Shown piece by piece: positions 6,201 to 48,315 of a stretch of DNA of 64,000 bases (position 1 is its first letter; each line of letters begins with the position of its first letter). Made by a program: the position numbers and the translations under genes. The notes under the pieces are model-generated. The model was not told the DNA's origin. It made no database searches and saw only the letters and a list, made by a program, of their open reading frames with translations. Where the stretch lies: assembly GCF_026210795.1 (NCBI RefSeq), contig NC_089430.1, positions 372,001 to 436,000 on the forward strand, in the 5' to 3' direction. The DNA is from Rhizophagus irregularis. Its lineage: Eukaryota.

Positions 6201-6289
6201 AAAAAAAAGTATATAATCGCAATTGGACGATATAAAAAAAATAATAATTTCTTTGGTAATAAATTTATAAATTTATAAGCGAATACCAA

Positions 6290-9200: not shown

Positions 9201-10255
9201 TGGTGTTTATTTTGCAATTATAATTAGTGTTGGAAAAAAGATTTTTTCTTTTTTATTACTCTTATTCATTATTATAATAAGTTTTGCACATGCATTTTAT
9301 ATTTTATTATCACCAAAATCTGAATTTTCACTTGAACAATATAATACAAATAATAATGATGATCCAAATAATCCTTGGAATTTAGCTCCTAGTTATAGTC
9401 AAATTGATAATAATGGAAATATAAATTCTAATCCACTTATGATTCAAATTCCTGATGGAAATACAAACCTATTTATGGATTTTAAAACTTCCCTTTTTGC
9501 TACATATTTATTTTTAATAGGTATATTTAAATTTTTCATAATTATGTAATTATACACAATATTTTCTAATATTTTTAAACAATTCTACTTATCAATAGGT
9601 GATTCAAGTGCATTATCCAATTGGACATATATCGAAAATCCATCAATTGCAGTATTGATTGTTTTATTTTCCCTTTTAATTGTTATAGATCTTATGAACT
9701 TGTTAATTGGATTACTCAGCAATGCAATTGAAGAAGATAATAATAGAGTCTCATATTTGATGCAAACGGCAGAGGTAAATAATATTATTATTAATCATTC
9801 CATTTCTGTAAATATACTAATATATCTCAACTTTTAGATTTTGGCCGAGATTGAGTTATTTTACCTATTACCAAATCAGAGACGTTGGCAAACATGGTTT
9901 CCTGAAGTAATGTATGTAGTTTTACTTTTAATAAAATAATTTAATGTTATAATTTTATTAATTATTCAAATTTATTTTTTCAAGACATTATTATGCCGAT
10001 GCTGATAAGACTCGAGAAGAAATTCAAAGATTGATTAAAGAGGGTGAATGGGATACAAAGGAATTCACAGAGATGCGGAATGATTTATTAAAAGTACTTA
10101 AAATTAAACATAATCCTATTGATAATGAGGCAATAATGGAGAAATTAAAATCTCATGATGAAAAATTAGAAAAATTAGAAAAATTAGATAAATTAGAGGA
10201 ATTAGAGAAATTAAAGGAATTAGAGAAATTATTGAAAGAAATATGTGCAAAATAA
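6290..10255 (+). CDS. TRP-like cation channel (N-terminal beta-propeller-like region, 6-TM pore, C-terminal coiled coil); multi-exon, possibly degenerate
   Basis: Approximate exons 6290-6695, 6767-7107, ~7164-7248, 7352-8977, 9047-9520, 9599-9774, 9838-9911, 9985-10255. Motifs WNGEALINFKWNAYG, LLFFRAFEYFGVYFAII, LMNLLIGLLSNAI, LAEIELFYLLP; (EKL)n coiled coil at the C-terminus. Acceptors around 7108-7351 are weak. Confidence 0.75.
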
Positions 10256-10700: not shown

Positions 10701-11730
10701 CAGACTTTTATTAAGTTATTAGGTTTTTTTTATGATTATTGTGTTTATAGTAACAAAGTTTTATAGTTTTTTTTAGTAAAATTAGGCTTGTTTTAAGTAA
10801 AATTGGTAAAATCCACTTAAAACTGAGTAAAAATTCGGATAAAATTGCTATTGGTTAGCAACAATAGTTTATATGTCTGAACTATCATAACGCTTGATCC
10901 ATTACAACTAGTTAAATATCTATCAAGTTTTATTTAGTAAAACAATTCATTAGAAATTAATATTAAATTAGTTAATTCAATAAACAATAATTTCGTTATT
11001 GCTTACCAAATTGTTGCAGTATAACATCTATCTGTTATGAGCTATCCATTTCAACTGAAGATAAATGTTCTGATCCAAAAAGTTCTTATTTAGCTATATA
11101 AATAAATATTTCATTAATAATTAGTAATTAGTTAAATAAATAAATAAAAATTACATCATTTACTAACATAATGCAGTATAAGATTTTTCCCATTCAATCA
11201 GTACATTACATCAAGTCCATAACAGATAAAGAAAAGGAGGGTATTGATTGAATAGCAATATTCAAAATGAAAAAAAATAATAAAAAAGGTTAGCCACCTA
11301 TCGTATTATTCCATTTTGATTGGCACCTTCTATTCTGAAGCTACAAATCTGAACCTAAAATAGCAATGAAGAAAAAAATGGGTCGATTAGTAACTTATGA
11401 AATGAAATAAATAAAAAAATCATTCCATTTTGATCAGTTCCTTACTTAAAATTGATAAGTGGATTGGTTAGTAGTAATTCGAATAAAAAAATGTAATGTA
11501 TATTTTGTCAGCAGCATTACATTATGATCAAATGAATAAAAATAATAATAATAAAGGAACAGACGTTATCATCACATGACGAAAAATTTTGTGTTAGGTC
11601 ACCCGATCAAACTATTTATCCATTTTGGAAAATCATACGATGATTTGCATAATTCTTCTCAATAAAAAAATTCCAAATTCCAAAAATCCGATTTTTATTC
11701 TCCAAACAAACTATATTAATATAAGTGATA

Positions 11731-13436
11731 ATGGAAAACTCAATTAAATATAGATTAAGAAATGCATCAAACAATAAATCTTTAATTCATAAAACACATA
11801 ATATATTAAAGCCAATATTCAAATTATGTAATGAGTGTAATAAAAAAAGAAAACATTGGGATGAAAGTCATCAATGTTGTCATCTATGTTATAAAGCAAA
11901 AACGGTACTTATATCAAGTGGAAATGAAGCTGTTGATGATTTTATAAGGTATACACGAATTAATTGGGATGCAACTGATGCAACCTTTAAAATGGAATTC
12001 GTTCCTTATAATAGATTCAATGATATAGAATTTATTGCTGAAGGAGGTTTTAGTAAAGTTTATAAAGCCACTTGGATTGATGGCCCAATAGCTAGTTGGA
12101 ATTATAAAAAACAAGCGTATCGTCGTAAAGGTAAAATGATGGTCGCTCTCAAGGAACTTAATAATTCTAAAAATATCACTCCAGAAGAATTAAATGAGGT
12201 AAGATATTATTATTAAATTATATTTTTATTTCTCTAATAAGTAATTAATTTAATTTTTATTTTAGCTTAAGATATTTTATGATTTTGCTATAAGACATCA
12301 AAATTCATCAATCATGTATGAATATACAGATAGTTACTATGACTTTAATCATTATCATGATATAAGTAATCATTATGGTATCACTAAAAATCCTATAACT
12401 CAAAATTTTGTGATAGTTACGGATTATTATGAAGGAAATAATCTAACACGTGAAATAGCTAAACATTTTAGCCTTTTATTATGGTATCAAAAGTTACTTA
12501 TTTTAGAAAGCACAATTTATAAACTTGAAATGGTACATAATGTAAATATCATTCATAGAGACTATCATAGTGGAAATATTTTGATTTCAAATGATTTCAG
12601 TTCAACTCTATGTGATTTAGGAATAAGTAAATCTGCAATGGGACATGATGAAGAGATTTATGGCATTATTCCTTATATTGCTCCAGAAATACTTAAGAGA
12701 CAAAATTATACTATAGCTTCAGATATATATGGTTTTGGTATGATTATGTGGGAATTAATGACTGGTAGAAGACCTTTCTGGGATCATGATCATGATACAG
12801 ATCTAATTATTAAGATTTGTGATGGTTTTCGTCCTCCAATTGTCACAAATGCACCTGAAGGTTATGTTGAATTAATGCAAAGGTGTTGGCATTCTGATCC
12901 AAATAAAAGACCTACAGCAACAGAATTACGTAAAAAAATTGTGATTATGAAAAACAATGAACCAGAGTATTATTGTGATGGCATTACTAAAATTGTAAAA
13001 TCACCAGATATTGGACCTGTAAAATCAATTAATCCGGGTGCCATCTATAAAAGTAGATCCTTGAGTGAGATGATAAAATCTGCAGAGTCTACAAGAAGTT
13101 TAGAAAGTATTGATTCAGAAATTAGTAATAACAAATTTGAAGATAATTTAACTATAAATGATAATGGTACAATAAAACTTAGCATTATCTATTTTCTAAT
13201 TATATCATGATTTTTTTTACATACTAATATTTCTTTTATTTGTTAGACTATTTAACAAAAGAAATTGAATTGGATATTGATAACGATACAAGTTTTGGTG
13301 ATTCTAAAGATGATGGTAAGCAAATACCAAATAATTGTTTACACTATTTTTTTTTTGTTTTTTGCCAATTTACTAATTTTAATTATAATATTTTATCACA
13401 GATTATGTTACTGAAGAGATCAATTTTGATATATGA
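11731..13436 (+). CDS. TKL-type Ser/Thr/Tyr protein kinase
   Basis: Exons 11731-12198, 12266-13166, 13247-13315, 13402-13436 (GT-AG, in frame). Motifs AEGGFSKVY, VALKEL, HRDYHSGN, DLG, APE, DIYGFG; N-terminal CxxC..CCxxC motif. Confidence 0.88.
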
Positions 13437-17315: not shown

Positions 17316-19584
17316 TTAAATATCTAAATATATAATAAAAAAAATCGAGTTAAAAAAAAAAATGCTGAAATTTTATTTTAACTTTTAAATAAGAAAAAAT
17401 GTTTAATTACCATCAGGAAGTTCAAATTCATTTTGTTCTTCCAAATGAAAATTTGGATTATTATAGTATATTTCATCCTCATCTATAAAAACAAAAGAAA
17501 AAACAACTTAAAATTAATTATTGAAATTATATAGTTTAGATAATCTTACATACCATCAACGTTAATATTATTTTTCTTCACTTTTTGTTGCATTGTTTCT
17601 CCTTTATAATCATTTTGAATATCTTAAAAAATTTAAATAAAATTATGTTTTTAATATTAAATAAATTTTAGATCAATATAATAATTATTATTTTACTTGC
17701 CATTCTTTGAATTCCTTTTAAATATTTTGGATAACTTCTTACTATCAACTATATTATATAATTTAGTATAAAATTAATCATTGAATATTTTGATTATCGT
17801 AAAACAAATAATTTTGACGTACTATTCTTCTGAATACCCGATTTATCAAATTCATCAACTAAAAAAAAGTTAAAATAGATAAATATAATGTTTATTTTAC
17901 AGAAATCCAATAATACTTACTATTATCAGGAATAGATAAGTCATATGATTTACTATAAAATGCTAAAATGTCCACGAAACAAACACAATTATTAATTATT
18001 TTAAATAAATACTATAAATAAATTTAAATTTATACCTTCTAGTTCTTCTATTGTTTATATAATAAAGCATCATTGATTAATATTTAGTATCTTAATACTT
18101 TTTCTAAATATTTAACAAAACAATTCATTATAATAAATATAATACCTTCTGTTGCATTTCTGGGTTCAGGAAGATTGTCAAATTGATGAAGTTTACTTGC
18201 AGATAAACTACTACTACTACTTGTATAATTTTCTATACTTTTCCATTCTAAATTATTATTTACTTCTGGTTGAGTTAATGATTCATTTGATTTATTTTGA
18301 TAAAATAAATTGATTTCTTTTATTTTCTTCCAAAGTGCAGCAACATCGGGTCTTTTAAATGGATCAGCATCCCAGCATTGTTTCATTAAATTTTTATATT
18401 CTAAAGGAGTTCCTGGTACAATTTTTGGTCTTATACCATTAACAATATTCATTGCAAGATCATAATTATGTTCATAATTAATAAATGGTGGTTGTCCAGA
18501 TGAAATTTCCCACATAAGCATTGCAACACTATAAATATCAGATTTATGAGTCTGTACTTTTCCAATAATAACCTCAGGTGCCATATAAGGAAGATTTCCA
18601 TATATACTTTTTAATGGTTTATCCGCAGGTCCACAAAACCCAAGATCACTAATATTAAGTCCAAAATTTTTAAGTAATAAATTTCCAGAATGCAAATCTC
18701 TATGAATCGCATTCTCTTCATGAATTCTTATAAGTGAAAAAATTATATTCTCAGCAATTTGAATTCTTTCTTTCCATGTAAGTTTATTATGATTTTGTTG
18801 TAAATATTTTCTTAAATCTATATCCATTTCATACATTACAAGCATATAATTTCCATTTGATGGATCTTGTGTTAAACCAAAACATTGGACGATTTCGGTC
18901 CATTTATTGCTCATATTTAAATGTGATTTTGCCTATAAAAATAAAATATTAATATAACTTATAATATTAATAATTTTTTAAATACTTTAAATTACAAACC
19001 TCATCAAACCAATTTTGATTTGCATTTTCAACATTTACTAGTATTTTAAGCACTACAACATGTTCTCCAAATCTTTTTAATTGTTGTTTTTTAGAATCCC
19101 ATTCTTTATATTTTCCATTAATCCAATCTGCTGTATAGATTTCAGAGCATCCACCTTTTGTTAGATATTTGATATTTTTTAAATTATCATATGGAATCCA
19201 TTCTGGTATCCTATTTGGTGCCAGTGTTTTCATTTGACACTCTTGTAATAAATTATCAATATCAACATTTCCAGATGTCCAATTTGAAAAATTTGCTTTT
19301 AAATAATTTCGAACACAAAGTTCACAAAATAATGTAGCTAAACATTCTTGGTTACAATTTTCACAAATTCTTTTTGTTCCTTCATTAAACGTAATTTTTT
19401 CATCATCATAAGTTTTAGTTAATATTGTTATTGCTTCAGATTTCTCATTTTCTGTAAGTGATTCATCTGCAAGAACTGTTTGTTTTTTAAATTCAAATTG
19501 TTTATGTATATCATTGTAAATGTTATAATCTATTAATGCAAATGCTCCCTCAATTGCAAAATAAATTTTATCATTATAGGACAT
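17316..19584 (-). CDS. TKL-type protein kinase with a micro-exon-encoded acidic tail
   Basis: Exons 19584-19000 and 18932-18146, then short exons including a 12-nt exon (18047-18036) and a GC donor near 17700, ending ..ELPDDI* at 17316. Motifs TKGGCSEIY, HRDLHSGN, DLG, APE; CENC..CELC motif. Confidence 0.85.
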
Positions 19585-21051
19585 AATGAATTATATTGTA
19601 GAAGCTTCAAACTTTTAAAAATTAATTTAGAAAAAGTTTCTCAGAATGGAGTCAAATAAATTTATCAAAGTTAGTTGTGCAACTCAATGATCGTTACAAA
19701 AAAAAAATCGTACTACACGAGTCTGTGGTACGGGTTTGTACATTGTAAAAGGCGTAAAATTTTATACCAAAGACATGTGTCTTGCTTTTGTAGTTTTATT
19801 ATTTTTTTTTTTTTACAAGACAAATTTCCTGCATGTAGGTAAAATATTATAGTATTATGGCAATAAATAATCACAAACTTTTATTTGTGTATATTTTATC
19901 GTTCGTTTTATTTTTAAACTAGTACAATTATATGTGTGGTTAAGAATTCTTTGTTATACATATAAAGTTAATAGCAAATAACTGTATTACAGAATCAGAA
20001 CTAAAGGGATAAATTGATTTAATTGTGTAATGTTGTGTAATGTTGTGCAATGGTCCACTTGAAATTTTTTTTATGCCGATCTTATCATCAGATAGTAAAA
20101 CTTGTAACTTGTAAAAACCGAAAATTACAAGAAAAAACTAAAAGGAATAATATAGAATAAATAATAATATTTTTAGGAGAATTGATTAATATTTCATTAA
20201 ATGTATTCTTTTATGGAAATTTTATAAATAATTTGACGCGATACTCAATAAATAAATTTTACATCTTGTTTTTTAACGTAAAACTTTAACAGAAATTTGG
20301 TTTCTTCACGTGACTGGGTGGGTCCTGTTCTTTAGGAGATTTTTTGGCATTTTGTCTATTAAAATAATTGACTGAAACTTGATACTTATTTGATTCCAAA
20401 CAATATTTTAATGTGATAAATAAATTTATTAATAACAAGAAAAATTATAAAATTCAATGACTAATTATACCTTAATCTTAAATCCTATGTGACATGTGAC
20501 GCACGTCAGTTACAGTATCATCTGAGATCCTGACGCAAAGAGTTATTTATTTTTCACTGTAATTCACATATTAAACATATTAAAGCAACTAGAAAATTAA
20601 TACCGTGAAATTCTTTACATCTACTAAAAAAAGTTGCATCTCAATTAGTTATTGAATAACACAAAAATTACTCCTCATTATCAAATCTATCTAGTTTTAT
20701 AAATTTTTTATTTAATTAATAAACTCAGAAAATATATATAAAATAAACAATATAAATAAACTAAATTATAATATCTTCACAATTCAAAATCCTACTTAAT
20801 GTCATTCTTAATCAATCAATCCTATTGGAATAATTATCGAGGTGTAAATTTGTAAACTATATTTTTTTTAGAACCTCACAAAAAAACTACGATATATGTA
20901 ATTTTAAACTATATTGACGGAAAAATTCAAAGATATAAAATCATTACAGAATTACTTACGATTTAAATAATAAAAATAAACAAACAAATAAACTGACTAT
21001 TCTTAATAAACAGTGCTATAATAAATGTAAGTTTAAAATTTACCATCTTTA

Positions 21052-24000
21052 TTAAATGTTTAGTTGAGAAATATCAATTTGCAAAGATAACGACACTAAT
21101 TAATAAATAAAGTTTTCATTAATAATTTACAACTAATTTAAATACTTTTTATTAACCATTACCTGAAGATTCCATGCTAATTATATCATCGTTCTGATTA
21201 TCATAATAATCGACAGTATTTTTTGGTTCAGGAAGATTATTAAAATTAAGCAATCTACTGGTATAAATATCTTCTGAACGTGATTTATATGATAATCCTA
21301 AGCTGGTTGAAGGTGCACTACTGACCGCCAAATTCTTATTGATATTTTCTGCTTCTCTAATTTGTATTTGTATTTCATGATTTTTCAATTTATTAAATAA
21401 TTCATTAGACCATTGATTTAAAATTTTTTTGATTTCTTCTGCTTCTGGTCGAGTTAACGGATTTGAATCTAAGCATCTTTTAATTAAATGGACAATTAAT
21501 TGTGGTACTTTGATATAAAACCTTGGCCTGAGTCCTTTACAAATTCTTATTGCTAAATTATGATCATGACTTACATCATGATATGGAGGTAATTCAGAAA
21601 TTACTTCATACATAATAATACCAAAACTATAAATATCTGAGGCTTTGGTATAATTTTGTCCTCGTAAAATTTCAGGAGAAATATAAGGTAAAATACCATA
21701 TGTACTCTTTTTTGCATTTTCTGATGGATTGTAATCTGCAGGTTTACATAATCCCATGTCGGTTATACAAGTGAGATCTTTGAACCTTAGTATATTGCCA
21801 ATATGTAAATCTCGATGAATTAATTCGTTTTTATGAATATCTGCAAGCCCTCGTGCAATGCTAAGTAAATAATTAATTTTATCATTAAGATATAATTTGT
21901 TATGATTTTTATTTAAATAATTTCGTAAATCTCCATCCTCTGCAAAATCTAAAACCATAGCATAATTTTCTGTTTCTGGATCTTGAGTTATTCCATAAAG
22001 TTTAACAATACACCTACCCAAATTTACTTTACAGTGTGATGTAATCTAAAATAAATGTATATATATTAGCAAAATTAAATATTTGCAACTTTTCAAATAA
22101 TAAAATTAGTTACCTCATTCATAAACTCTAATGTAACATTTTTTGAATTATTCAAACATTTTAATGCCACCAACATATTTTTATTCCTTCTTCTCCAATT
22201 TTGATTTTTATTATCCCATTTATCTATACATCCATCAATCCAATTTGCTTTATACACTTTACCAAATCCACCTTTTGCAATATAAGTAATATCATGAAAT
22301 TTATTGTAAGGTATCCATTCCAACGCATGGCATGCATTATAACTATGGTCTGATAGCTGAATATCTTGAATAAATCCATCAATATCATTATTACCACTTG
22401 TCCAATTATTGAAATTTTGTTGAAAATGTAATGCATTACACACATGCTTATATTTTTTACATTCTTCACTATAAGCTACTATATAATTTTTTGTCTCCGG
22501 ATCCTTAGTTATCCCATAAACTTCATGAAAACCTATAAACTATAAAAATAAAATATTAACGAAAATAAAAATTTTCAGAATTTCATTAATAATAAAAATA
22601 ATAAATTCATACCTCATTAATAAATTTTAACAAAACGTTTTCTGAACTATTAAAGCTTCTCAAAGTTACAATCATATCTTGATTTTTTCTTTTCCAATTT
22701 TGATTTTTATCATCCCATATATTTATATATCCATCAATCCAATTAGCTCTATATAATTTATCAGAAAAATTTTGAAGTTGCAGATCTGCGCATACTTTTG
22801 TAGTACATTTAATGTTATAAAATTTATCATAAGAAATCCATTCTAATGTTTTTGATATCTGATAGGTATTATGTGACAATAGCTGAGTAGTCTGAATAAA
22901 TTCATCAATATCATTATTACCACTAGTCCAATTTTTGAAACTTCGTTGAAAATGTATTGCATTGCATACTTTTTTACATTTTTCACATATATCTTTCAGA
23001 ACAAGCATATAATTTTGTGTTTCTGGATCTTGGGTTATCCCATAAACTTTATTATCAAATCCTATAATCTGCAACTAAAATAAAATAACACTGAAATATA
23101 TTAGTAAAAATAAAATTTTATAAATTATACTAAATGAAAAATAATTTTAATACCTTATTCATTATAAATTTTGATTCAATAGATTTTGGATCTGTACTTA
23201 AATTTTTTAAAATTACAAACATATTTTGATGCTTTCTTTCCCATTGACCTTTATTATCCCATTGGTTTATATATCCATCAATCCAATTTGCTCTATATAC
23301 TTTATCACTATTCTTTGCAATACATTCAATATTATAAAATTTGTCATAAGGTATCCATTCTAATACTTTTGATAATTGATAGGTTTTATGTAATAGTTGA
23401 GAATTTTGAATAAATTCATCAATAATATTATTACCACTAGTCCAATTTCCAAAATTTAGTTGAAAGTGTATTGCATTACATATATTATTACATTGCTTAC
23501 ATGTTAAAACTACCATGTATTTTTCTGTTTCTGGATCTTGGGTTATTCCATAAACTTTATAGGAACCTATAGTCTACAAATAAAATAGATGTATTGAATA
23601 TAATAACAAAAAATATTTTATTAAATAATAGTATTAATTATACCTTATTTAATTCGCTAACTTTTAAAACATTTAAACTTTTCAAAATCAAATAAATATA
23701 TTTGTCTTTTCTTTTCCAATTTTGATTTTCATCATTCCATTCATTTATATATCCATCAATCCAACTTGCTCTATATATTTTATCTTTTACAATGCATTTA
23801 ATATAAAATTTATCATAGGGTATCCATTCTAATGCTTCTGATAATTGATAGGTTTCATGCGATGATAGTTGAGAATTTTGAATAAATTCATCAATAATAT
23901 TATTACCACTAGTCCAATTTCCAAAATTTAGTTGAAAGTGTATTGCGTTACATATATTATTACATTGCTTACATGTTAAAACTACCATGTATTTTTCTGT

Positions 24001-27000
24001 TTCTGGATCTTGGGTTATTCCATAAACTTTATAGGAACCTATAGTCTACAAATAAAATAGATGTATTGAATATAATAACAAAAAAATATTTTATTAAATA
24101 ATAGTACTAATTATACCTTATTTAATTCGCTAACTTTTAAAACATTTAAACTTTTCAAAATCAAATAAATATATTTGTCTTTTCTTTTCCAATTTTGATT
24201 TTCATCATTCCATTCATTTATATATCCATCAATCCAACTTGCTCTATATATTTTATCTTTTACAATGCATTTAATATAAAATTTATCATAGGGTATCCAT
24301 TCTAATGCTTCTGATAATTGATAGGTTTCATGCGATGATAGTTGAGAATTTTGAATAAATTCATCAATAATATTATTACCACTAGTCCAATTTCCAAAAT
24401 TTAATTGAAAGTATATTGAATTACATACATCATTACATTTTTCGCATGTTAAAACCACCATGTAATTTTCTGTTTCTGAATCTTGGGTTATTCCATAAAC
24501 ATTATCGAATCCTATAATCTGCAACTAAAATAAATAACATTGAATATATTAGTAAACATTAAATTTTATAAATTACATTGGGTGAAAAATAATTTTAGTA
24601 CCTTATTCATTTTTGATTCAATAGATTTTGGATTTGTACTTAAATTTTTTAAAATTACAAGCATATTTTGATGCCTTCTTTCCCAATTTTGACCTTCATT
24701 ATCCCATTGGTTTATATATCCATCAATCCAATTTGCTCTATATACTTTATTTCCGCTTGTTGAAATACATTTCATGTCATAAAATTTGTTATAAGGTATC
24801 CATTCTAATGATTTTGATAATTGATAGGTTTTATGTGATGACAGTTGAGAATCTTGAATAAATTTATCAATAATATTATTACCACTAGTCCAATTTCCAA
24901 AATTTAATTGAAAGTATATTGCATTACATATGTCATTACATTTTTTACATGTTAAAACCACCATGTAATTTTCTGTTTCTGGATCTTGGGTTATTCCATA
25001 AACTTTATAGCAACCCATAGTCTAAAATGAAATGGATATATTAAATATACTAACAATAATCAAAATATTCAAAATATTTTAATAAATGAATGATAATATT
25101 AATTATTACCTTATTTAATTCACTAACTTTTAAAATATGATCTAAACTTTTCAAAATCATAGATATATTTTGGCCTTTTCTTTCCCAATTTTGATTTGCA
25201 TAGTCCCATTTATTTATATATCCATCAATCCAATTTGCTCTATATACTTTATTACCACTTTTTGAAATACATTTAATATCATAAAATTTGTTATAAGGTA
25301 TCCATTCTAATGCTTTTGATAATTGATAAATTTTATGTGATGATAGTTGAGAATTTTGAATAAATTTATCAATAATATTACTACCACTAGTCCAATTTCC
25401 AAAATTTAATTGAAAGTATATTGCATTACATACATCATTACATTTTTCACATGTTAAAACCACCATGTAATTTTCTGTTTCTGAATCTTGGGTTATCCCA
25501 TAAACATTATTAAATCCTATAATCTGCAACTAAAATAAATAACATTGAATATATTAGTAAATATTAAATTTTATAAATTACATTAGGGGAAAAATAATTT
25601 TAGTACCTTATTCATTTTTGATTCAATAGATTTTGGATTTGTACTTAAATTTTTTAAAATTACAAGCATATTTTGATGCCTTCTTTCCCAATTTTGACCT
25701 TCATTATCCCATTGGTTTATATATCCATCAATCCAATTTGCTCTATATACTTTATTTCCGCTTGTTGAAATACATTTCATGTCATAAAATTTGTTATAAG
25801 GTATCCATTCTAATGATTTTGATAATTGATAGGTTTTATGTGATGACAGTTGAGAATCTTGAATAAATTTATCAATAATATTACTACCACTAGTCCAATT
25901 TCCAAAATTTAATTGAAAGTATATTGCATTACATACATCATTACATTTTTCACATGTTAAAACCACCATGTAATTTTCTGTTTCTGAATCTTGGGTTATC
26001 CCATAAACATTATTAAATCCTATAATCTGCAACTAAAATAAATAACATTGAATATATTAGTAAATATTAAATTTTATAAATTACATTAGGGGAAAAATAA
26101 TTTTAGTACCTTATTCATTTTTGATTCAATAGATTTTGGATTTGTACTTAAATTTTTTAAAATTACAAGCATATTTTGATGCCTTCTTTCCCAATTTTGA
26201 CCTTCATTATCCCATTGGTTTATATATCCATCAATCCAATTTGCTCTATATACTTTATTACTACTTTTAGAAATACATTTAATATCATCAAATTTGTTAT
26301 AAGGTATCCATTCTAATGCTTTTGATAATTGATAGGTTTTATGTGATGATAGTTGAGAATCTTGAATAAATTTATCAATAATATTACTACCACTAGTCCA
26401 ATTTCCAAAATTTAATTGAAAGTATATTGCATTACATACATCATTACATTTTTCACATGATGTTAAAACCACCATGTAATTTTCTGTTTCTGAATCTCGG
26501 GTTATTCCATAAACTTTATAGCAACCTATAGTCTAAAATGAAATAGATACGTTTGAATATGTTAATAAAAATTAAAAATCCTATTAAATAATAATATTAA
26601 TTATACCTTATTTGTAAGTGTTAATTCACTAATATTTGAAATATTTAAACTTTTTAAAATTACAACCATATTTTGATGTTTTCTTTTCCAATGTTGATTT
26701 TCAACATTCCATTTATTTATATATCCATCAATCCAACTTGCTCTATATATTTTATCTTTTACAATGCACTTATTAATATAAAATTTATTATAGGGTATCC
26801 ATTCTAACACATTGTATGATACAAAATAATTATGTTCTAATAGTTGAGTATCTTGGATAAATTTATCAACATAATTATTACCGCTTGTCCAATTTTTGAA
26901 ATTTTGTTGAAAATGTATTGCATTACATATATAACCACATTCTTCACATATATCTTTCTGAACTATTATATAATTTTTTGTATCTGGATTTTGAGTTATC

Positions 27001-27972
27001 CCTATTGTTAACTATAAGTATAATAAATTAATAAGAGGTATACTGTTTAAAAAATGATAAAATAACTTGCCTTGTTTACAAATTCTGATATATTATATTT
27101 TGGATCACTTAAATTTTTTAGAATTACAAACATATTTTGATGCCTTCTTTCCCATTGACCTTCATTATCCCATTGGTTTATATATCCATCAATCCAATTT
27201 GCTCTATATACTTTATTACTATTTTTTGCAATACATTTAATATCATAAAATTTGTTATAAGGTATCCATTCTAATGCTTTTGATAATTGATAGTTTTTAT
27301 GTGACAATAGTTGAGAATTTTGAATAAATTCATCAATAATATTATTACCACTAGTCCAATTTCCAAAATTTAGTTGAAAATGTATTGCATTACATATATT
27401 ATTACATTTTTCACATGTTAAAACCACCATGTAATTTTCTGTTTCTAAAATTTGGGTTATTCCATAAACTTTATAGCAGCTGATAATCTACAAATGAAAT
27501 AGATATGTTTGAATATGATATTAACAAAAATAAAAATCTTATTAAATAATAGTATCAATTATACCTTATTTGTAAGTGTTAATTCACTAATATTTGAAAT
27601 ATTTAAACTTTTTAAAATTACAACCATATTTTGATGTTTTCTTTCCCAATTTTGATTTTTATCATCCCATTTATTTATGCACCCATCAATCCAATTTGCT
27701 TTATATACTTTGTTTTTTTCAATGTACTTAATATTATGAAATCTATCATAAGGTATCCATTCTAGTGCTTTTTCTGCATCGCTATGAGCTAATAGTTGAG
27801 TATTTTGGATAAATTTATCAATATCATCATTACCACTAGTCCAGTTTTTAAAATTTTGCTTAGACCGTTTTTCAAAACAAATTTTATAACATTTTATAAA
27901 TATCTTATCTGACTTGTATAGAATAATGATGAGTATGAAGAAGAAGGCACCAATAATTTGAATGAAACCCAT
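21052..27972 (-). CDS. Giant TKL kinase (about 1,980 aa) with an N-terminal hydrophobic anchor and 12 exon-encoded Cys-motif/N-lobe modules
   Basis: Exons 27972-27565, 27487-27071, 27011-26607, 26532-26110, 26026-25607, 25523-25110, 25021-24602, 24518-24117, 24045-23644, 23573-23154, 23068-22613, 22539-22114 (all multiples of 3, phase 0), then 22045-21163 (HRDLHIGN, DMG, SPE) and 21095-21052. Confidence 0.85.
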
Positions 27973-28771
27973 TTAAATAATAATAAACGAATTCAAATTA
28001 ATAAAACAATTTGTTCGGAAGAATTTCAGTAGATAATGAAAAAAAATTCCGGAAAAAAATATTTTAGAGCGAAGATCATATAAATTGGTTAGTTAATCAC
28101 GCCGATCCCAATCTGCAGAATGATGTAATAGTTATTTCACGGGGATGATTTTCATAAACCGTGGAATAACTGGCGGTATCCGTACCATAAAGCTTTTTAA
28201 TATACTTATTTTGACTAATAATTATAGTCTTTTTATTCCAATATTGATAGACCTTTTACCCATCTTTTTAAATAATGAGAATATCAAGAAAAAAAATCAC
28301 AAAAAAAAAATATAAAAATCTAAAATTATTACATGCCTTCTGCAGATCGGCGAATATGTTATGTTACTATTATTTTTTTTTTCTAGTAATTCTCTTTATT
28401 AGTATCGTAAGAAATTTGGTACAAATCTAATTTAATATAATAAAGACGTAAAACACCTAATCAATAAAGTAACCTATCTATTAAAATAACCTATTTAACG
28501 TGCAAAACTATTATTACTATTATTATTATTTTTATAACACATCCGTTAAAGAAAATTTAAGCTCTACCTTTTATTAAAATTCATTAATTATTCTCAAACA
28601 TATTATAAGAATATTTTCCAAAAAATTAAAATGCACTATAAACTTTTCTAGCTTTGAACTGAAATCGTAAAGAAGCCAAAGATATATATTTCAATTTGAT
28701 ATTTTCAGTTAAGTCATCATAAAACGAATTGCTACAATTATGATAATTGCTAAGCAAGAATTAGTGGCAAC

Positions 28772-32494: not shown

Positions 32495-32949
32495 GTTGAT
32501 AGTTTGATCGAAGGACATTAAATTCTGTTATATCAGTCATTATACTATTAATATTTTAAAGAAACTTGTTGTTGACTCGCAATTGAGAATTAATAAAGTC
32601 CGATGTGTGGTTTGCGTCATTGATCTGGTTGTTGAAAATATCAATAAAGATGATCAATATCGAGATCATGCATGTTTTACATGTTTTATCTCAGTAAATA
32701 CAATAATAGTTTAATAGTTTAATTGAAACTCAATAATTAATTTATCTATCATTCTATCCATCCATCTTTTTCTTCATAATGACTCATCCAAAGCTTGCCA
32801 TAAAGAAGTAGATTGCAATCACAATACTGGTTATTATTTTTTTTTTTGTATTTGCTTTAAAAAGATATAAATATACCTCAAAAGCTCTCTCAAACTTCAA
32901 ACTTCTTTTTAAAAATATACTTACTTATTTACTTCTTTTCAATATTTAT

Positions 32950-33550
32950 AACACTTCTCTCAAAACTTTTGAAATTTTCGCTAAAAAAAAAGTATCATGG
33001 TATAAAGTATTTTTATTTATTCTATTTACTTGTTTTTAATATTTACGATCACCTCTCTCAAAACTTTTGAAATTTTCGCTAAAAAAAAGTATCATGGTAT
33101 AAAGTATTTTTTATTTATTCTATTTACTTGTTTTTAATATTTACGATCACCTCTCTCAATACTTTTGATATTTTCGCTAAAAAAAAAAAGTATCATGATA
33201 TAAAGTGTCTTTTAGTTTATTATATTTACTTCCTTTTAATATTTACGATCACCTCTCCTAAAATTTTGATATTTTTGCTAAAAAACAAAATTATCATGAT
33301 ATAAAGTGTCTTTTAGTTTATTCTTATTTACTTCTTTTTAATATTTACGATCGGGAAGGGAAAGAGCAAGGAAATACACAAACATACACCACCTACGCAC
33401 AAACCCACACACAAACCTACCGACACACAACAACCCACATACCTAAAGGAAGACGTAAAGAAAAGGGTTTAAGACCTTTACTAAAATTTTTGATATTTTC
33501 GCTAAAAAAAATAAGTATCATGGTATAAAGTGTTTTCTAGTTTATTTTTT
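32950..33550. repeat. About 100-bp tandem repeat (about 5 copies) inside the Helitron, interrupted by a CA-rich insert at ~33353-33480
   Basis: Unit CACCTCTCTCAAAACTTTTGAAATTTTCGCTAAAAAAAAGTATCATGGTATAAAGT..AATATTTACGAT. Confidence 0.85.
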
Positions 33551-35249
33551 ATATATTGATGATAATGTCGGTATATTCTGATAAATGAAATATAATTTTT
33601 TTTGGATATTTTCTGACAGTTTATTTAGACTTTACATTCAGCGTATAACGAATTTAAAAATTGGAAATAAATTTGAACGGATATTGATAATATTGAATTT
33701 CTTCGCTTTGGTGGTAAGTTGAAAACCAGCAACTTACTTTCTATGATAATTGTCGCCTTACTAGGGGTACCACAGATTATCCATAATATGTTGTATTTTT
33801 GTTGTATTTTATTTTTGTTATTTGTAGTTATTTGTATTTTTTTCTTTGCTTTTTTATTTAGTTTAGTATAGGTTATTTGTCATTATTTGTATTTTTTTTT
33901 GTCTTTATTTAGTTTAGTATAGTAATAATGGATAGTAACGGACTAGTGAGGGACATTAAGGAGAAACTGGCTTTCCTTGAGGAGGGTTAGCTTACTTTTC
34001 TCCTATCATAGGAATTATTAGTATGATTTTTAACCATACTAAGACCACTTTTTTTTGCAGCTTCTCTCATGTTTTCCTTGAATTTTCCTAGAAATGGTTC
34101 GGTATTTGACTAAAGTAAGTATACATTACATTCAGCATATAATGAACTGAGGAATTTCTTTTTTTCAAACTTCTTAAACTTAAAATTCTTTTTTCATGTT
34201 AGATATTATCATGTCATTATTGAATTTCATTATCTAAAGAAAAAAAATTAGATTTTACGAATATGTATATAATTTTATGGATCACTGTGAATTATATATG
34301 AAAGAAACTTATTATTTTGCATTTTATTATATAATTCCAGCCACGCAAACAAGGTTCTCATATTGGGCGCTTAATTTCGTAAAAAAATAAAATATTCACG
34401 AAATATAAATTATTTGATTTGCAGATAATCATTTTTTTATTGTCATATTCAATCAACATTGGAAAACTTTATGTAAGTATTGAACATAAATTTCTCCAAA
34501 ATTATTAATTTTAAAGGCAATATCAATTTGCGAAGTTTGCTATTTTTAACATATTTACTATTTTTATATTCACAAACTTGGGCACGAGCAACTTATTATG
34601 TATAAAATCAATTTTTAATTTGGTATACAGTACTTGCTTATACATTGTAGCACAGCGAAGAGGATTTATTTATATGAGATTATAAATGGCTTTAGTTATA
34701 CTTAAGTGCGAGATCAAAAGAAATTTAAACAAAACATCAAAAATTTCTTTGTAAGCAAGGATATTGCAAATAGATAATGTAAACTACTCCATTCACGTAT
34801 TAAAAAAATAAAGTTAAATTATCAAACATACAATATTTATTAATTACACTATACTGTATAACTGAAATTTGAATAATTTTATATTTTACATATCTTTTTT
34901 TTTTACAAAAGTATACAAGTATATAATTATTAACAATGATACATTAGTCTTGATTTAGAAACACTAAAATCATAGAATTTTAAAAAATTTTCATTTAACA
35001 ACAGAAACATTGAAATATTAGGAATTTGTTATAAAAGAATCACTTTCATCCCGCCATATACAGAATAAAGCTGTAAACATTCTGGAATTTCGCTATAAAA
35101 TTTATAAACAAAAGGGATAGGCCAAACCTTATCTAAGGAACCAGACGCCAAAAACGCCTAGAAGAAAAAAAGAACTGACTACGATAATGACCAAAAATAT
35201 AAAGTGAAATGAAGTAAAAAAAGATGTCAACAAAAATAAATAACAAATA

Positions 35250-35621
35250 TGATAGTGTGCTAGCATTAAATATATGTAATGGAATTAGACCTGAAATAAA
35301 TGAACAAGAAGCACCAAAATTTTATATCAATTTAATGACAAATTGCTGGGATTCAGATCCAGATAAGAGACCAAGTGCTATTGAAATAGAAAAATTGTTT
35401 AATGACTCTTTTGTTCTAATAAAGATGAAGAAATTAAGAAGCAGATTAAAAAAGCAGAAGAATATAGAAGAACAAATTTCTTATTTGCTGGAAATAGCCA
35501 ATCAATTCATCCACAAGCTTGTTATACTTCTCGATTACTCAATCAATTTATAAAAGAACTTCCAAAACATGATAATACTTGCAATATTTCAGCAGAAGTT
35601 ATTGATTTTACGGATATGTAA
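35250..35621 (+). pseudogene. 3' fragment of a TKL kinase, paralog of the last exon of the 48.3-55.1 kb gene
   Basis: DSVLALNICNGIRPEINEQEAPKFY..CWDSDPDKRPSAIEI matches 54700-54850; frameshift near 35410; 5' part of the gene absent. Confidence 0.85.
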
Positions 35622-37899: not shown

Positions 37900-40800
37900 T
37901 ACTATTGGGATTCAGGTGCCGATTTCCCTACAAAAAGAAAAAGTAACATTAAAAATAATAAAAATAAAGTTTTTTTTAAAGTTTTGAATCAAAACTTACT
38001 TATGGTATCCAAATCGGAGTCAATTTCCTTAAAAAGAAAATTCTGGAGCATTCTTTGAATCTCACAGATCCAAAGATATCACAGCTGAAACTTACAAAAT
38101 AAAGAAAGAGTCAAATTAAAAAACAATTTTTATTAAGAAGTTTTGAAGTATTTGCTTCAAAACTTACCATTTCAATGCCCAAAGATATCACAGCCGATAC
38201 CTACAAAATAAAAAAATAAATAAAATTATAAATTTTTCTGAAAGTTTGAAAAAAACGAAACTTTGAAACTTACTGACCCAATGTTTAAGGAGATATTGCA
38301 GTCAAAACCTACAGAATAAAAGAAAATTTTAAAAAATAATTTTTATTAAAAAAGTTTTGAAAAGAAAATGAAACTTACCGATCCAAAGCCCAATGAGATG
38401 TCGCAGCCATTACCTATAAAATAAAATAAAATAAAATAAAATAAAAAATCTTTTTTAAAGTTTTAAAAAGAAAGCAAAACTTCAATACTCACCTATCCAA
38501 AGCCCAAGGATATTACAACTGATAACTACAAAATAAAAAAACAAATAAATAAAATTAAAAAAAATTTTTAAAGTTTTGAAAAGAAAACAAAACTTTGAAA
38601 TTTACCTTTAAATCAAACGCATAAGAACTGAAAGCCGAAATCTACAAAAATAGAAGAAAAAAAAATTAAAATAAATTAATTTATCTTAAAAAAGTTTCAG
38701 CTCTTTTGCTCTGAAACTCACCTATATATCAAACACCCAGAAACAAAAAGCCGAAACCTACAAAATAGAAGAAAAAAAAAATTAAATAAATAATTTATTT
38801 TAAAAAAAGTTTTGGTTCTTTCACTCCAAAACTCACCTATATATCAAACGTCCAAGAACTGAAAGCTGAAACCTACAAAATAAAAAAAAAACAAGTAAAT
38901 TAAAAAAAATATTTTTTTAAAAAAGTTTCAAAGTTTTCACTTCAAAACTCACCAATATCAAATACCCAAGAACTGAAAGCCGAAATCTACAAAATAGAAG
39001 AAAAAAAAATCAAAATCAATTTATTTTAATAAAAATTTCAGCTCTTTCACTCCGATACTCACCTATATATCTAAACCAAAAGCTGAAATCTACAAAATAA
39101 AAAAAAGTAAGTAAATTAAAAAACTTTTTTAAAAAAACTTTTGAAGTTTTTGCTTTGAAACTCACTGAAAGCCGAAATCTACAAAATAGAAGAAAAAAAA
39201 ATTAAAATAATTTATTTTAAAAAAAGTTTCAGCTCGTTCGCTTTGAAACTTACTTATATAATAAACTTCCAAGAACCGAAAGCCGAAACCTACAAAATAG
39301 AAGAAAAAAAAAATTAAAATTAATTTATTTTAATAAAAATTTTGGCTCTTTCGCTCCAAAACTCACCTATATATCAAACATCCAAGAACTGAAAGCTGAA
39401 ATCTACAAAATAGAAGAAAAAAAAAATTAAAATAAATTAATTTATTTTAAAAAAAGTTTTGGCTTTTTCGCTTCGAAACTCACCAATAATAAACGTCCAA
39501 GAACCAAAAGTCGAAACCTACAAAATAAAAAAAATAAGTAGATTAAAAAATTTTTTTTTTAAAAAATTTCAAAGGTTTCACTTTGAAACTCACCTATATC
39601 AAACACCCAAAAACTGATAGCTGAAATCTACAAAATAGAAGAAAAAAAATCAAAATAAATAATTTATTTTAAAAAAAGTTTTGGCTCTTTCGTTCTGAAA
39701 CTCACCTATATATTTAACACCAGGAACCAAAAGCTGAAATCTACAAAATAGAAGAAAAAAAAAATTAAAAATTAATTTATTTTAATAAAAATTTTGGCTC
39801 TTTCGCTCCAAAACTCACCTATATATCAAACATCCAAGAACCGAAAGCTGAAATCTACAAAATAGAAGAAAAAAAAATTAAAATAAATTAATTTATTTTA
39901 AAAAAAGTTTTGGCTTTTTCACTTCGAAACTCACTAATAACAAACGTCCAAGAACCAAAAGTCGAAACCTACAAAATAAAAAAAAATAAGTAAATTAAAA
40001 AATTTTTTTTTAAAAAAATTTCAAAGGTTTCGCTTCAAAACTCACCAATATCAAACGCCCAAAAACTGATAGCCAAAATCTACAAAATAGAAGAAAAAAA
40101 AATCAAAATAAATAATTTATTTTTAAAAAGTTTTGAAGGTTTCGCTTCAAAACTCACCCCAAGAACTGATAGCCGAAATCTACAAAATAGAAGAAAAAAA
40201 AAATTAAAATAAATAATTTATTTTAAAATAGTTTTGGCTCTTTCACTCCGAAACTCACCTATATATTCAACACCAGGAACTGAAAGCCGAACCTACAAAA
40301 TAGAAGAAAAAAAAAATCAAAATAAATAATTTATTTTAAAAAAGTTTTGGTTCTTTTGCTTCGAAACTCACCTATATATTCAACACCTAAGAACCAAAAG
40401 CCAAAAATAGAAGAAAAAAATTTGATTTTTTTTTTAAAAAAAAGCTTTGATTCTTTCACTCTGAAACTCATCTATATACTTAACACCCAAGAACCAAAAG
40501 CCAAGATCTACAAAATAGAGAAAATAGAGGGAAAAAAAAATTAAAAAAAAATTTTTTTTTTTAAAAAAAGGTTCAATTCTTTCGTTCTAAAACTCACCTA
40601 TATACTCAAAGTTCAAAAACTAAAAGCTGAACCTACAAAATAAATAAAAAATATAAGTAAATTAAAAAAAATTTTTTTAAGTTCCGAAGTCAAAACTTAC
40701 CCATCTAACGTCCAAGAACTAGAAGCCGAAACCTACAAAGTAAAAGAAAAAAAAATTAAATAATTTTTTAAAAAAATTTCATAGTTATCATCTATATATT

Positions 40801-44926: not shown

Positions 44927-46215
44927 CAGTCACGTCCGAAAGTGACGCCCGATTTAAAATTAATGCCAAAAATGGCAAAACTTTATTGATTTTCATTAAA
45001 ATTCACATAAAAAATAATTACTAAAAATGGTTAATAATGTGTTGGCCCTCCCCTTGCTTCTAGTACTGCATTTATTCTTTGTGGCATTGAAGCAACAACC
45101 TCTTCAAAAATGGAGCAATCCAAATTTTCCCATTCTTCACTTAGTGCAACTTTAAGTTCATCCACAGTTCTTGGAAAGACTTTACAACTCTGGATATTGT
45201 CCTTTAACTGCTTCCAGATGTTTTCTATTGGATTTAGATCAGGAGAATTTGCCGGCCAATCAATAACCACAATTTTATTCTTCTTCAACCAATCCTTGGT
45301 TATTTTCGCGGTATGTATGGGTGCATTATCCTGTTGAAAAATTGCAGCCCTTCCTGTTAACTCATGAACTGTATGCTGAAATGGATACAGATATGAATTT
45401 AGGATTCTAATGTAAGTATTTGAATTGATTTTTTTATTTCCTTCTTTATTTTCATCACAAAAAATTAATGGCCCTTTTATCCCTCCTGCAAAACAGCCAC
45501 AAACCATGACTGATTTTTGACCACTTTTAAAGATAGGTGTCAAGCATTCAGTGTTAAACCTTTCCCCTGTGTGTCTCCAAACTCTTATTTGTCGTGACTG
45601 CTTGCCAATCTCAACACTTGATTCATCTGAGAAAATAACTTGTGCCCAATCATAAGCTGTTTTTTCTTTATATTTCTCACACCAACTAATACGAGCTAAT
45701 GCATGCTTTTCTGAGATAAAGGGTTTTTTTGCAGCAACATGGGAATAAATTCCAACACTATGTAATGCTCTTTTAGCAGTTGTAAGGCTGCAATTTAAAT
45801 CTAATGTATTAATGACTTCATGTAAAGGTTCGCATCGATCTTGTGTAACTTTGTTTATGAGTGCATTTTTCTCATTATTATTGAGAGCAGGTGGACACCC
45901 CGATCTAGGTAAATTTTCAGTTTTCCCTGTCTTCTTGTATCTGTCAATAATTCTTCTTATTGTGGTGGGGTCACGACCCATTTTTCTTGCTATTTGTGCA
46001 GGGTTAAAATTCTCCATATATGCTAGTATTTTTCCTTTATCTTGAGAAGTTAACTCAGTTCTATGTGACATTATTTTTTTAACTTTGCAACGCGTTTATT
46101 AGGTTATGAAATTGTGAGAAAAACATTTAAAAATAAAAAAAAGGGGGTATAAATAATGTAAATTTTGTGTATCATAACACCGTACAAAATCGGGCGTCAC
46201 TTTCGGACCTGACTG
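44927..46215 (-). mobile_element. Full-length Tc1/mariner transposon (1,289 bp)
   Basis: 29-bp TIR CAGTCA[C/G]GTCCGAAAGTGACGCCCGATTT (1 mismatch), TA target duplication, and an empty paralogous site at ~59500-59520. Confidence 0.95.
45031..46071 (-). CDS. Tc1-family DD34E transposase, 346 aa
   Basis: N-terminal HTH; IFSDES, FQQDNAPIH, WPANSPDLNPIENIW; 34 residues between the second D and the E. Confidence 0.95.
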   Translation of the reverse strand: MSHRTELTSQDKGKILAYMENFNPAQIARKMGRDPTTIRRIIDRYKKTGKTENLPRSGCPPALNNNEKNALINKVTQDRCEPLHEVINTLDLNCSLTTAKRALHSVGIYSHVAAKKPFISEKHALARISWCEKYKEKTAYDWAQVIFSDESSVEIGKQSRQIRVWRHTGERFNTECLTPIFKSGQKSVMVCGCFAGGIKGPLIFCDENKEGNKKINSNTYIRILNSYLYPFQHTVHELTGRAAIFQQDNAPIHTAKITKDWLKKNKIVVIDWPANSPDLNPIENIWKQLKDNIQSCKVFPRTVDELKVALSEEWENLDCSIFEEVVASMPQRINAVLEARGGPTHY

Positions 46216-48090: not shown

Positions 48091-48315
48091 TTCAAGTGAG
48101 CCAAACGATTTTATTTTGATCTGCATTGTACAGTATGACAAATTTATTGAGTAAGTGTTATGCTTAAAGAAAAATGGCGTAATTATTATCACATGATTTC
48201 CAATTCGATTTAAATTTTGTGATAATCATCGCATATTTGTGTAATTGTTTTGACACCTTCTTTAATTAACACCGATTATTGTTTGTTTTTAAAAAAACAA
48301 AAAAAATCCTAAATC

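What the first reader, a model, noticed from the sequence alone, without database searches (positions are those of the whole stretch)
21052..27972. Giant kinase built from a tandem array of symmetric exons, each encoding a kinase N-lobe-like module
Seen: twelve 402-456-nt exons, all multiples of 3 with phase-0 introns. Each encodes (YGITQDPETENYMVVL)-CxxCxxxCxxx[HY]F-NWTSGN..ID.FIQ-EWIPY..F..I-VYRANWIDG-VILKxL. Only the last keeps a Gly loop (AKGGFGKVY) and joins a C-lobe. Exon 1 starts with a hydrophobic segment (IIGAFFFILIIILY). Established: these motifs correspond to kinase beta1-beta5/alphaC, and symmetric exons can be duplicated or skipped without frameshift. Inference: a membrane-anchored kinase with about 11 catalytically dead N-lobe modules whose number and order can vary by unequal crossover or alternative splicing. 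It is a candidate variable sensor/decoy system, comparable in logic to tandem-kinase or Dscam-type diversification.
Basis: partly seen in the sequence, partly recalled or inferred. Interest (0 to 1): 0.85.

Follow-up and report, generated by a model that had tools for sequence, protein, structure and literature searches.

The report
Kinase with eleven half-kinase repeats
In a root-symbiotic (arbuscular mycorrhizal) fungus, a spliced gene places eleven copies of the front half of a protein kinase, lacking its ATP-binding loop, ahead of one complete kinase; many related fungal proteins share this unannotated layout, and the repeats likely form a reshuffling binding arm that would control the kinase.

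Summary
Real. The minus-strand gene 27972-21052 has 14 exons and one open 1,987-aa frame; twelve phase-0 exons of 402-462 nt repeat one unit. Named hits place it in Rhizophagus irregularis. RNA contigs from two studies splice the array to the kinase. The unit is a Cys/His cap plus a kinase N-lobe: all 50 listed structural matches of the predicted model are protein kinases. Upstream units keep the fold residues but lose the Gly loop, beta3 Ala and alphaC Glu; the last unit completes an intact kinase. Exons are permuted against domains (the intron sits in alphaC), so symmetry follows from tandem duplication. Exon skipping is not shown: the one apparent skip is ambiguous. The layout is a large family: 271 of 369 fetched proteins carry three or more units (Rhizophagus, Glomus, Acaulospora; also seen in Gigaspora), it arose more than once, and Pfam misses the repeat. 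A hydrophobic N-terminus is rare (9 of 263). Likely a non-catalytic binding or regulatory array diversified by DNA recombination; no ligand known, no diversifying selection detected here. Ten literature searches found no description. The scan had no look-alike note.

The parts
27565..27972 (-). Exon 1 (408 nt): ATG, hydrophobic segment, cap to alphaC of module 1
   Evidence: 100% to P0068 residues 1-136; a 124-nt contig of run X17 lies at 27640-27763
27916..27966 (-). Hydrophobic segment, residues 3-19, followed by Lys residues; predicted signal anchor
   Evidence: KD19 2.55; predicted helix 3-19 at low pLDDT; shortened in the close paralog P0008
27071..27487 (-). Exon 2 (417 nt; GC donor, or 408 nt with GT donor at 27080)
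26607..27011 (-). Exon 3 (405 nt); last 80 nt identical to those of exon 1
26110..26532 (-). Exon 4 (423 nt)
   Evidence: acceptor 26532 seen in RNA joints, donor exon 1 or 3
25607..26032 (-). Exon 5 (426 nt)
   Evidence: joint class (E4/5/7) to (E5/6)
25110..25529 (-). Exon 6 (420 nt)
   Evidence: unique joint E6-E7 in X16, X17, X18
24602..25021 (-). Exon 7 (420 nt)
24117..24524 (-). Exon 8 (408 nt)
   Evidence: unique acceptor seen in X17; donor E4, E5 or E7
23644..24045 (-). Exon 9 (402 nt)
   Evidence: joint class (E8/9) to (E9/10)
23154..23573 (-). Exon 10 (420 nt)
   Evidence: unique joint E10-E11 in three runs
22613..23074 (-). Exon 11 (462 nt), with an insertion at the Gly-loop position
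   Evidence: unique joints on both sides
22114..22539 (-). Exon 12 (426 nt): beta4-beta5 of module 11, then cap, Gly loop (22278-22252), VALK Lys and alphaC Glu of the kinase's own N-lobe
   Evidence: 1,957-nt contig of X18 joins E11-E12-E13
21163..22045 (-). Exon 13 (883 nt): beta4-beta5, hinge and C-lobe with HRDLHIGN (21817-21794), DMG (21760-21752), ISPE, DIYSFG
   Evidence: Pfam PF07714 E 4.9e-37; sequence
21052..21095 (-). Exon 14 (44 nt, phase 1) with stop; SLQIDISQL tail
   Evidence: same C-terminus in the public record P0109; the X18 contig leaves the genome at 21163 and has 327 further nt; the joint itself was not among those listed

Best explanation
The gene encodes a kinase with all catalytic motifs intact, preceded by eleven tandem cap-plus-N-lobe units that lack the Gly loop; these units are predicted to fold as kinase N-lobes and likely form a non-catalytic binding arm that would recruit partners to the kinase and regulate it, with number and order changed by DNA recombination rather than by splicing. 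Shown: gene structure, splicing of the 3' part of the array to the kinase, selective loss of ATP-facing and C-lobe-facing residues, purifying selection on the core, duplication of exon plus intron, family breadth, more than one origin. Predicted: N-lobe fold, a Cys3-His metal site in the cap, a fairly fixed geometry between neighbouring units (pTM 0.66 for three). Inferred: kinase activity; that the exposed former cleft (alphaC, Gly-loop position, hairpin, His loop) is the binding face; that the ligands are proteins that normally engage the cap and N-lobe of this very large kinase family (regulators, substrates, sibling kinases or foreign inhibitors), caught with avidity or as decoys.
For: Fold: AlphaFold2 of P0068 (exons 1-3 of this gene, 96-100% identical) pLDDT 81, pTM 0.66, repeated helix-helix-beta1-beta2-hairpin-beta3-alphaC-beta4-beta5 order; 50 of 50 listed rows are kinases, top Z 8.7, rmsd 2.1 over 70 residues, N-lobe part. 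Selective decay, 409 modules against 69 kinase-attached units: Gly-loop Gly 99% to 42% gap, beta3 Ala 94% to I41/N19/T16, alphaC Glu 96% to E48/K41, His after alphaC 96% to lost; kept are three Cys (88-94%), one His (93%), five Trp (94-99%), YGITQ. Selection: median dN/dS 0.50 over 55 pairs, core regions 0.22-0.33 against 0.68-0.78 in alphaC, beta3, hairpin and His loop, 13 of 13 gap runs in frame. Transcript: unique joints E6-7, E10-11, E11-12, E12-13 in three runs of two studies. Recombination: introns 4 and 5 identical, intron 7 96%, introns 8 and 9 97%, exact repeats of 401, 296, 295 nt; P0046 kinase 96.8% identical over 157 aa but its upstream modules 62-75%. Breadth. Repeated origin: modules as one clade rejected, p-AU 0.00016; Acaulospora modules group with their own kinase, support 98.
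Against: No partner, activity or localisation was measured. No region or clearly aligned site of this array shows dN/dS above 1, whereas fungal NLR repeats show positive selection at binding positions (PMC4986451, passages). dN/dS of 0.5 could reflect only selection against misfolding. The beta3 Lys is kept in 86% of modules, so decay is not complete. Structural Z is modest (5.9-8.7) and rests on a predicted model of three of the twelve units; the cap was barely tested. The second array in the window carries an insertion and a stop in one exon and pN/pS near 1, which fits decay as well as diversification. Family counts are biased to arrays by the search design and rest on automatic gene models.
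Confidence: 0.55

Rival explanations
1. Tolerated by-product: the cap-plus-N-lobe segment is prone to tandem duplication in a repeat-rich genome; the copies have no role, and selection only keeps them in frame and folded so that the terminal kinase is still made.
For: dN/dS only 0.5; unit number varies widely; kinase genes of this fungus are high-copy, often methylated and near transposons (PMC8647823, passages); the second array has a broken exon.
Against: The same residues are lost and kept across 409 modules and again in Acaulospora and Gigaspora; arrays arose more than once; making 1,500 useless residues in many genes would be costly (inference); old modules such as exons 1, 3 and 11 (67-77% nucleotide identity to others) remain open.
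Confidence: 0.2
2. Lobe competition: an upstream dead N-lobe docks on the C-lobe in place of the kinase's own N-lobe and keeps it off until a signal releases it.
For: Modules keep the N-lobe fold and mostly the beta3 Lys; kinase-pseudokinase pairs regulate in cis (PMC8761531, passages).
Against: Residues that face the C-lobe (alphaC Glu, the His after alphaC, Gly loop) are the ones relaxed in modules; one competitor would suffice, yet up to 14 units occur.
Confidence: 0.12
3. Dscam-like system: symmetric exons are skipped or chosen alternatively, so one gene yields many sensor isoforms.
For: All twelve exons are phase 0 and a skip would leave whole chimeric N-lobes; a joint placed from exon 1 to exon 4 is listed in X16 and X17; in the second array the only stop codon lies in the same exon as the insertion, as expected if that exon is skipped (about 1 in 10 by chance).
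Against: The exon 1-4 joint fits exon 3-4 equally; all four uniquely placed joints are between neighbouring exons; symmetry follows from duplication of a one-intron unit; introns are short (59-88 nt), which favours constitutive intron-defined splicing (established knowledge, recalled).
Confidence: 0.1
4. Assembly artefact or pseudogene.
For: Exact repeats up to 401 nt; public models of this locus are fragmentary (P0068, P0109).
Against: No two exons are identical; the frame is open over 1,987 codons; spliced RNA contigs match without a difference; similar arrays are annotated in several species.
Confidence: 0.03

Closest known systems
Expanded tyrosine-kinase-like (PF07714) kinase family of Glomeromycotina
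   Same: The terminal domain is a member: PF07714 E 4.9e-37. The expansion is published (PMC6123716, passages; 2,533 kinome members, 10.1101/2022.10.19.511543, passages). Public records label these proteins kinase-like or hypothetical.
   Different: The passages seen describe gene number, not an N-lobe repeat; the module exons tested reach no Pfam cut-off and match no kinase by sequence in the PDB.
Tandem kinase-pseudokinase proteins of cereals (Rpg1, WTK1) and JAK JH2-JH1
   Same: A dead kinase-derived part precedes an active kinase; decoy and regulator roles are proposed; origin by repeated duplication (PMC8761531, passages).
   Different: Those carry a whole second kinase domain; here only cap plus N-lobe is repeated, up to 14 times, and none of 271 arrays has two HRD-type motifs.
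Fungal NLR repeat domains with high internal conservation (Podospora NWD WD40; ANK; TPR)
   Same: Near-identical repeats, exchange within and between genes, repeat-number differences (PMC4986451, passages).
   Different: No NACHT or NB-ARC domain; the repeat is a 140-aa kinase half-domain; positive selection was not detected in this array.
KIND domain (kinase non-catalytic C-lobe domain; recalled, from no call)
   Same: A single kinase lobe reused as a non-catalytic domain.
   Different: KIND is the C-lobe, in one or two copies in animal proteins (recalled); this is the N-lobe with a Cys/His cap in long arrays.
Dscam1 (recalled) and Tuber melanosporum NACHT-ANK micro-exon splicing (PMC4986451, passages)
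   Same: Duplicated in-frame exons in a candidate recognition protein.
   Different: Those diversify by alternative splicing; here the uniquely placed joints are constitutive and skipping is not shown.

Membership tests
Protein kinase, PF07714 / TKL-like (terminal domain) | Profile match above the curated cut-off | tested here: met
   128.1 bits against cut-off 23.1 for exon 13
Protein kinase, PF07714 / TKL-like (terminal domain) | Gly loop, beta3 Lys, alphaC Glu, HRD Asp and Asn, DFG Asp, APE-type Glu | tested here: met
   AKGGFGKVY, VALK, FMNE, HRDLHIGN, DMG, ISPE read from the sequence; motif names recalled, three of them also in PMC13519141
Protein kinase, PF07714 / TKL-like (terminal domain) | Phosphotransfer activity | not testable with these tools
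   needs an assay
Kinase N-lobe fold (modules) | Five-stranded sheet with alphaC in kinase order, superposable on solved N-lobes | tested here: met
   predicted model; 50 of 50 rows kinases, top Z 8.7, rmsd 2.1, 70 aligned; exon 5 is 57% identical to the kinase-attached exon 12
Pseudokinase / tandem kinase protein | A complete second kinase domain (N- and C-lobe) | tested here: not met
   one C-lobe in the gene; 0 of 271 arrays with two HRD-type motifs
Pseudokinase / tandem kinase protein | Dead part binds an effector or regulates the active kinase | not testable with these tools
   no ligand known
Fungal NLR-type variable repeat receptor | High internal repeat conservation with shuffling | tested here: met
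   exons up to 96% identical, duplicated introns, mosaic tracts; module exchange among paralogs
Fungal NLR-type variable repeat receptor | NACHT or NB-ARC domain | tested here: not met
   the 1,987 aa are fully accounted for by twelve units, one C-lobe and a tail; no such Pfam hit in the five exons scanned
Fungal NLR-type variable repeat receptor | Positive selection at a few sites per repeat | tested here: inconclusive
   no region above 1; 4 of 133 codons with three or more changes, three in poorly aligned alphaC; only 8-10 recombining copies, low power
Fungal NLR-type variable repeat receptor | Repeat-number polymorphism among isolates at one locus | tested here: inconclusive
   P0018 (another isolate label, exon 1 90% identical) continues with three exon-6-like units, but is truncated and may be a paralog
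Dscam-type alternative-exon receptor | Skipped or mutually exclusive exons in transcripts | tested here: inconclusive
   4 unique joints all adjacent; 4 joint classes ambiguous, including exon 1 or 3 to exon 4; contigs drop rare variants
Membrane-anchored kinase | Transmembrane-length hydrophobic segment | tested here: met
   KD19 2.55 at residues 1-19; true of 9 of 263 arrays that start with Met
Membrane-anchored kinase | Membrane localisation | not testable with these tools
   needs a fusion or fractionation test

The most novel reading that the evidence does not exclude
Arbuscular mycorrhizal fungi have repeatedly turned the kinase N-lobe into a new superstructure-forming repeat and built hundreds of receptor kinases on it: a variable non-self or decoy array, reshuffled by unequal crossover and conversion (perhaps also by exon skipping), that plays the part LRR, ANK or WD repeats play elsewhere and explains part of their huge kinome.
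Probability: 0.25. Interest if true: 0.87.

Novelty: new variant of a known kind. Interest (0 to 1): 0.63.

Why it matters
The purpose of the thousands of kinases in arbuscular mycorrhizal fungi is an open question. A sizeable part of them carries a repeat that domain libraries miss and that gene callers break up (the two public models matching this locus are 407 and 491 aa against 1,987). Naming the repeat as a dead kinase N-lobe, with a map of kept and lost residues, gives a concrete, testable unit: what it binds and whether it controls the kinase. For protein evolution it is a case of half an enzyme domain becoming a tandem repeat, more than once in one lineage.

Tried and rejected
No whole genome was held, so no genome-wide count and no allele comparison at DNA level. 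No listed run is on record as RNA; X16, X17, X18 were taken as RNA because they join predicted introns; X9 and X14 read through introns and were set aside as DNA. Among the 9 joints listed at 99% likeness none enters exon 2 or 3, and the three RNA runs give no cover at 27848-28200, which holds the hydrophobic segment: holes in contigs prove nothing either way. Joints with non-splice ends and sides of 20-32 nt were rejected as paralog or repeat matches; 43 joints were not shown. AlphaFold2 of the paralog P0008 (pLDDT 63) is uninformative for residues 400-850, where the alignment had one row; it seated module 3 on the C-lobe (Z up to 26), but 81 of 82 kinase N-lobes had been aligned onto module 3, so this is no evidence for lobe swapping. 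Complex prediction of one module with the kinase unit of P0107: no answer, score 0.00, alignment not used. Foldseek against the PDB never ran. A profile of the exons found no kinase among PDB sequences (best E 0.089). The Atlas gave only unnamed Mucoromycota kinase clusters. The large tree is the quick one on 102 columns, 64 of 126 branches open, and my core pattern missed three of the twelve window units; the AU test used 38 of its 133 rows, picked after seeing the tree. The closeness of RIPK3, PTK7, MLKL and JAK2 JH2 at the top is within ties and was not interpreted. Searches of earlier scan notes: nothing by sequence, one loose parallel by words. Paper supplements were not read.
Full report
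Observation. The region is 23-25% GC. On the minus strand twelve open frames of 135-159 aa, each with an NWTSG motif, precede a kinase C-lobe frame. Splice sites give twelve phase-0 exons of 402-462 nt, an 883-nt exon and a 44-nt exon: 5,964 nt, 1,987 aa, no internal stop, from ATG at 27972 to the stop at 21052.

Organism. Of 120 listed longer relatives of exon 5 (128 found among 203 candidates), 118 are named Rhizophagus irregularis, clarus or diaphanus and two are unnamed JGI proteins. P0068, an R. irregularis record, is 100% identical to exon 1 and 96-97% to exons 2-3; P0109 is a 491-aa patchwork of exons 8-14. The fetched public models of this locus are therefore fragments.

Transcription. 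Contigs of runs X16, X17 (one study) and X18 (another) skip the predicted introns with canonical ends and no other letters in the listed pieces. Checking each joint against identical exon ends: E6-7, E10-11, E11-12 and E12-13 are unique; (E4/5/7)-(E5/6), (E4/5/7)-E8, (E8/9)-(E9/10) and (E1/E3)-E4 are not. The last was placed as a 1,032-nt skip, but exons 1 and 3 share their last 80 nt and the listed sides are 34 and 65 nt, so it is as well the ordinary exon 3-4 joint. Skipping is neither shown nor excluded.

What the unit is. Four array exons were scanned or compared with Pfam: none reaches a cut-off; exon 12 has a weak PF07714 match (E 0.018) and exon 13 a strong one. AlphaFold2 on P0068 with 102 rows gave pLDDT 81 and pTM 0.66, with the same element order in each unit. 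Against 48,161 solved chains, all 50 listed rows are protein kinases, matched over about 62-81 residues of their N-lobes at rmsd 2.1-3.3 A in most rows, top Z 8.7; three chains with two kinase domains matched two units at once, at high rmsd. The matched range 209-293 crosses the exon 2/3 junction: the intron lies in alphaC, as in the single-unit kinases of the window. The duplicated unit thus runs from the Cys cap to the end of beta5 and holds one intron; any in-frame tandem duplication of such a unit makes symmetric exons. In domain register there are eleven upstream N-lobes and a twelfth that belongs to the kinase.

What was kept and lost. In 120 relatives plus the window, 409 upstream units were compared with 69 kinase-attached ones (466 near-complete units from the relatives, partial ones dropped). 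Lost upstream: Gly-loop Gly (99% to 42% gap, 24% Asp), beta3 Ala, alphaC Glu (Lys in ten of the window's eleven), and the His after alphaC. Kept: three cap Cys and a His (a predicted Cys3-His zinc site), the NWTSG helix, EWIPY, YxAxWIDG, two hairpin Trp, beta3 Lys (86%) and YGITQ. The terminal kinase has every catalytic motif. Among window exons dN/dS is 0.50 (median of 55 pairs, one above 1), 0.22-0.33 in core regions and 0.68-0.78 in alphaC, beta3, hairpin and His loop, and 13 of 13 internal gap runs keep the frame. A per-codon count on eight close copies found no clear positively selected site. The modules look like folded domains freed from ATP and from the C-lobe.

How the array changes. 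Introns were copied with exons (introns 4 and 5 identical, 7 at 96%, 8 and 9 at 97%), and exact tracts of 401, 296 and 295 nt join different pairs of units in mosaic fashion: unequal crossover and conversion. The closest kinases have other arrays: P0046 (96.8% over 157 aa) has 4 units with upstream modules at 62-75%, P0008 (87.7%) has 6.

Family. A full profile search gave 2,629 clusters at 50% identity with E up to 0.001, many of the top 150 with several stretches. A second subfamily, represented by another array in this window, gave 630 longer proteins; of 120 listed, 118 Rhizophagus and 2 Glomus cerebriforme. Of 20 representatives looked up, 4 are Acaulospora morrowiae and 16 Rhizophagus; an Acaulospora module found 12 Acaulospora and 7 Gigaspora rosea proteins, with Gly-less upstream units in all six further Acaulospora and 4 of 7 Gigaspora proteins printed. 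Of 369 proteins then in hand, 271 have three or more units, up to 14; none has two HRD-type motifs; 187 have one Gly-loop motif, 80 none, 4 more than one. These searches favour arrays, so the share is no genome estimate. Modules do not form one clade (p-AU 0.00016, 23 against 15 rows, quick tree), and Acaulospora modules group with their own kinase (support 98): the layout arose more than once. A hydrophobic N-terminus occurs in 9 of 263 arrays and is shortened in the paralog P0008, so anchoring is an option of this gene, not of the system.

Mechanism. Best reading (0.55): a non-catalytic arm of N-lobe units that binds proteins which normally engage the cap and N-lobe of these kinases and so recruits to, or gates, the terminal kinase; variation arises in DNA. 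Rivals: tolerated by-product (0.20), lobe competition (0.12), splicing-based diversification (0.10), artefact (0.03). Binding, gating and zinc are inferred or predicted, not shown.

Comparison with print. The kinome expansion is known: PMC6123716 (passages on 'kinase'), PMC8647823 (passages), 10.1101/2022.10.19.511543 (passages). None of the passages seen mentions N-lobe repeats. Ten searches (listings and abstract starts) returned no description of tandem N-lobe arrays; a 2026 pseudokinase review did not mention them in the passages found (PMC13519141). The library lacks most subscription journals, and supplements of the genome papers, which may list domain architectures, were not read. It works most like tandem kinase-pseudokinase proteins (PMC8761531, passages) and evolves like fungal NLR repeats (PMC4986451, passages), but fails membership in both: no second C-lobe, no NOD domain. 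KIND and Dscam comparisons are recalled.

Verdict. A real, spliced, conserved architecture; a new variant of multidomain kinase with an unannotated repeat made of half a kinase. Interest 0.63.

Noticed in passing
window 48315-55067 (+): A second N-lobe array kinase of another subfamily (four-Cys cap): nine array exons, the last with a Gly loop, then a C-lobe exon. Its fourth exon holds a 1,099-nt insertion (49856-50954) with short terminal inverted repeats and an 8-bp target duplication (hAT-like, recalled) and also the only stop codon; the other exons are open. pN/pS among its repeats is 1.03 with 100 of 154 columns invariant and changes clustered in the cap loop. A natural test of exon skipping; no RNA test done.
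   Followed up: partly
window 11725-13207 (+) and 18087-19590 (-): Two single-unit kinases of the same broad family, with the intron at the same alphaC position.
   Followed up: partly
window 63063-63935 (-) and 35218-35550 (+): A kinase C-lobe exon whose upstream part lies beyond the window, and a C-lobe fragment.
   Followed up: no
window 45034-46095 (-): Open 354-aa Tc1/mariner-type transposase (DDE_3, HTH_Tnp_Tc3_2).
   Followed up: partly
window 1629-3170 (+): 514-aa frame with a weak F-box-like match (E 0.14) followed by leucine-rich-looking repeats.
   Followed up: no
window 6263-9546 (+): Multi-exon gene with several hydrophobic segments at its end, resembling an ion-channel-like membrane protein (impression; no significant Pfam hit for the one frame scanned).
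   Followed up: no
window 38604-40524 and 32926-33352: Tandem DNA arrays of about 113-115 bp (4 and 12 copies) and 98 bp (4 copies).
   Followed up: no
window 27012-27070 (-): Intron 2 appears to use a GC donor in a full consensus context at the position where all other units use GT.
   Followed up: partly
proteins P0383-P0385 (Gigaspora rosea): These carry two Gly-loop N-lobes, one of them two HRD motifs: true tandem kinases beside the N-lobe arrays.
   Followed up: no
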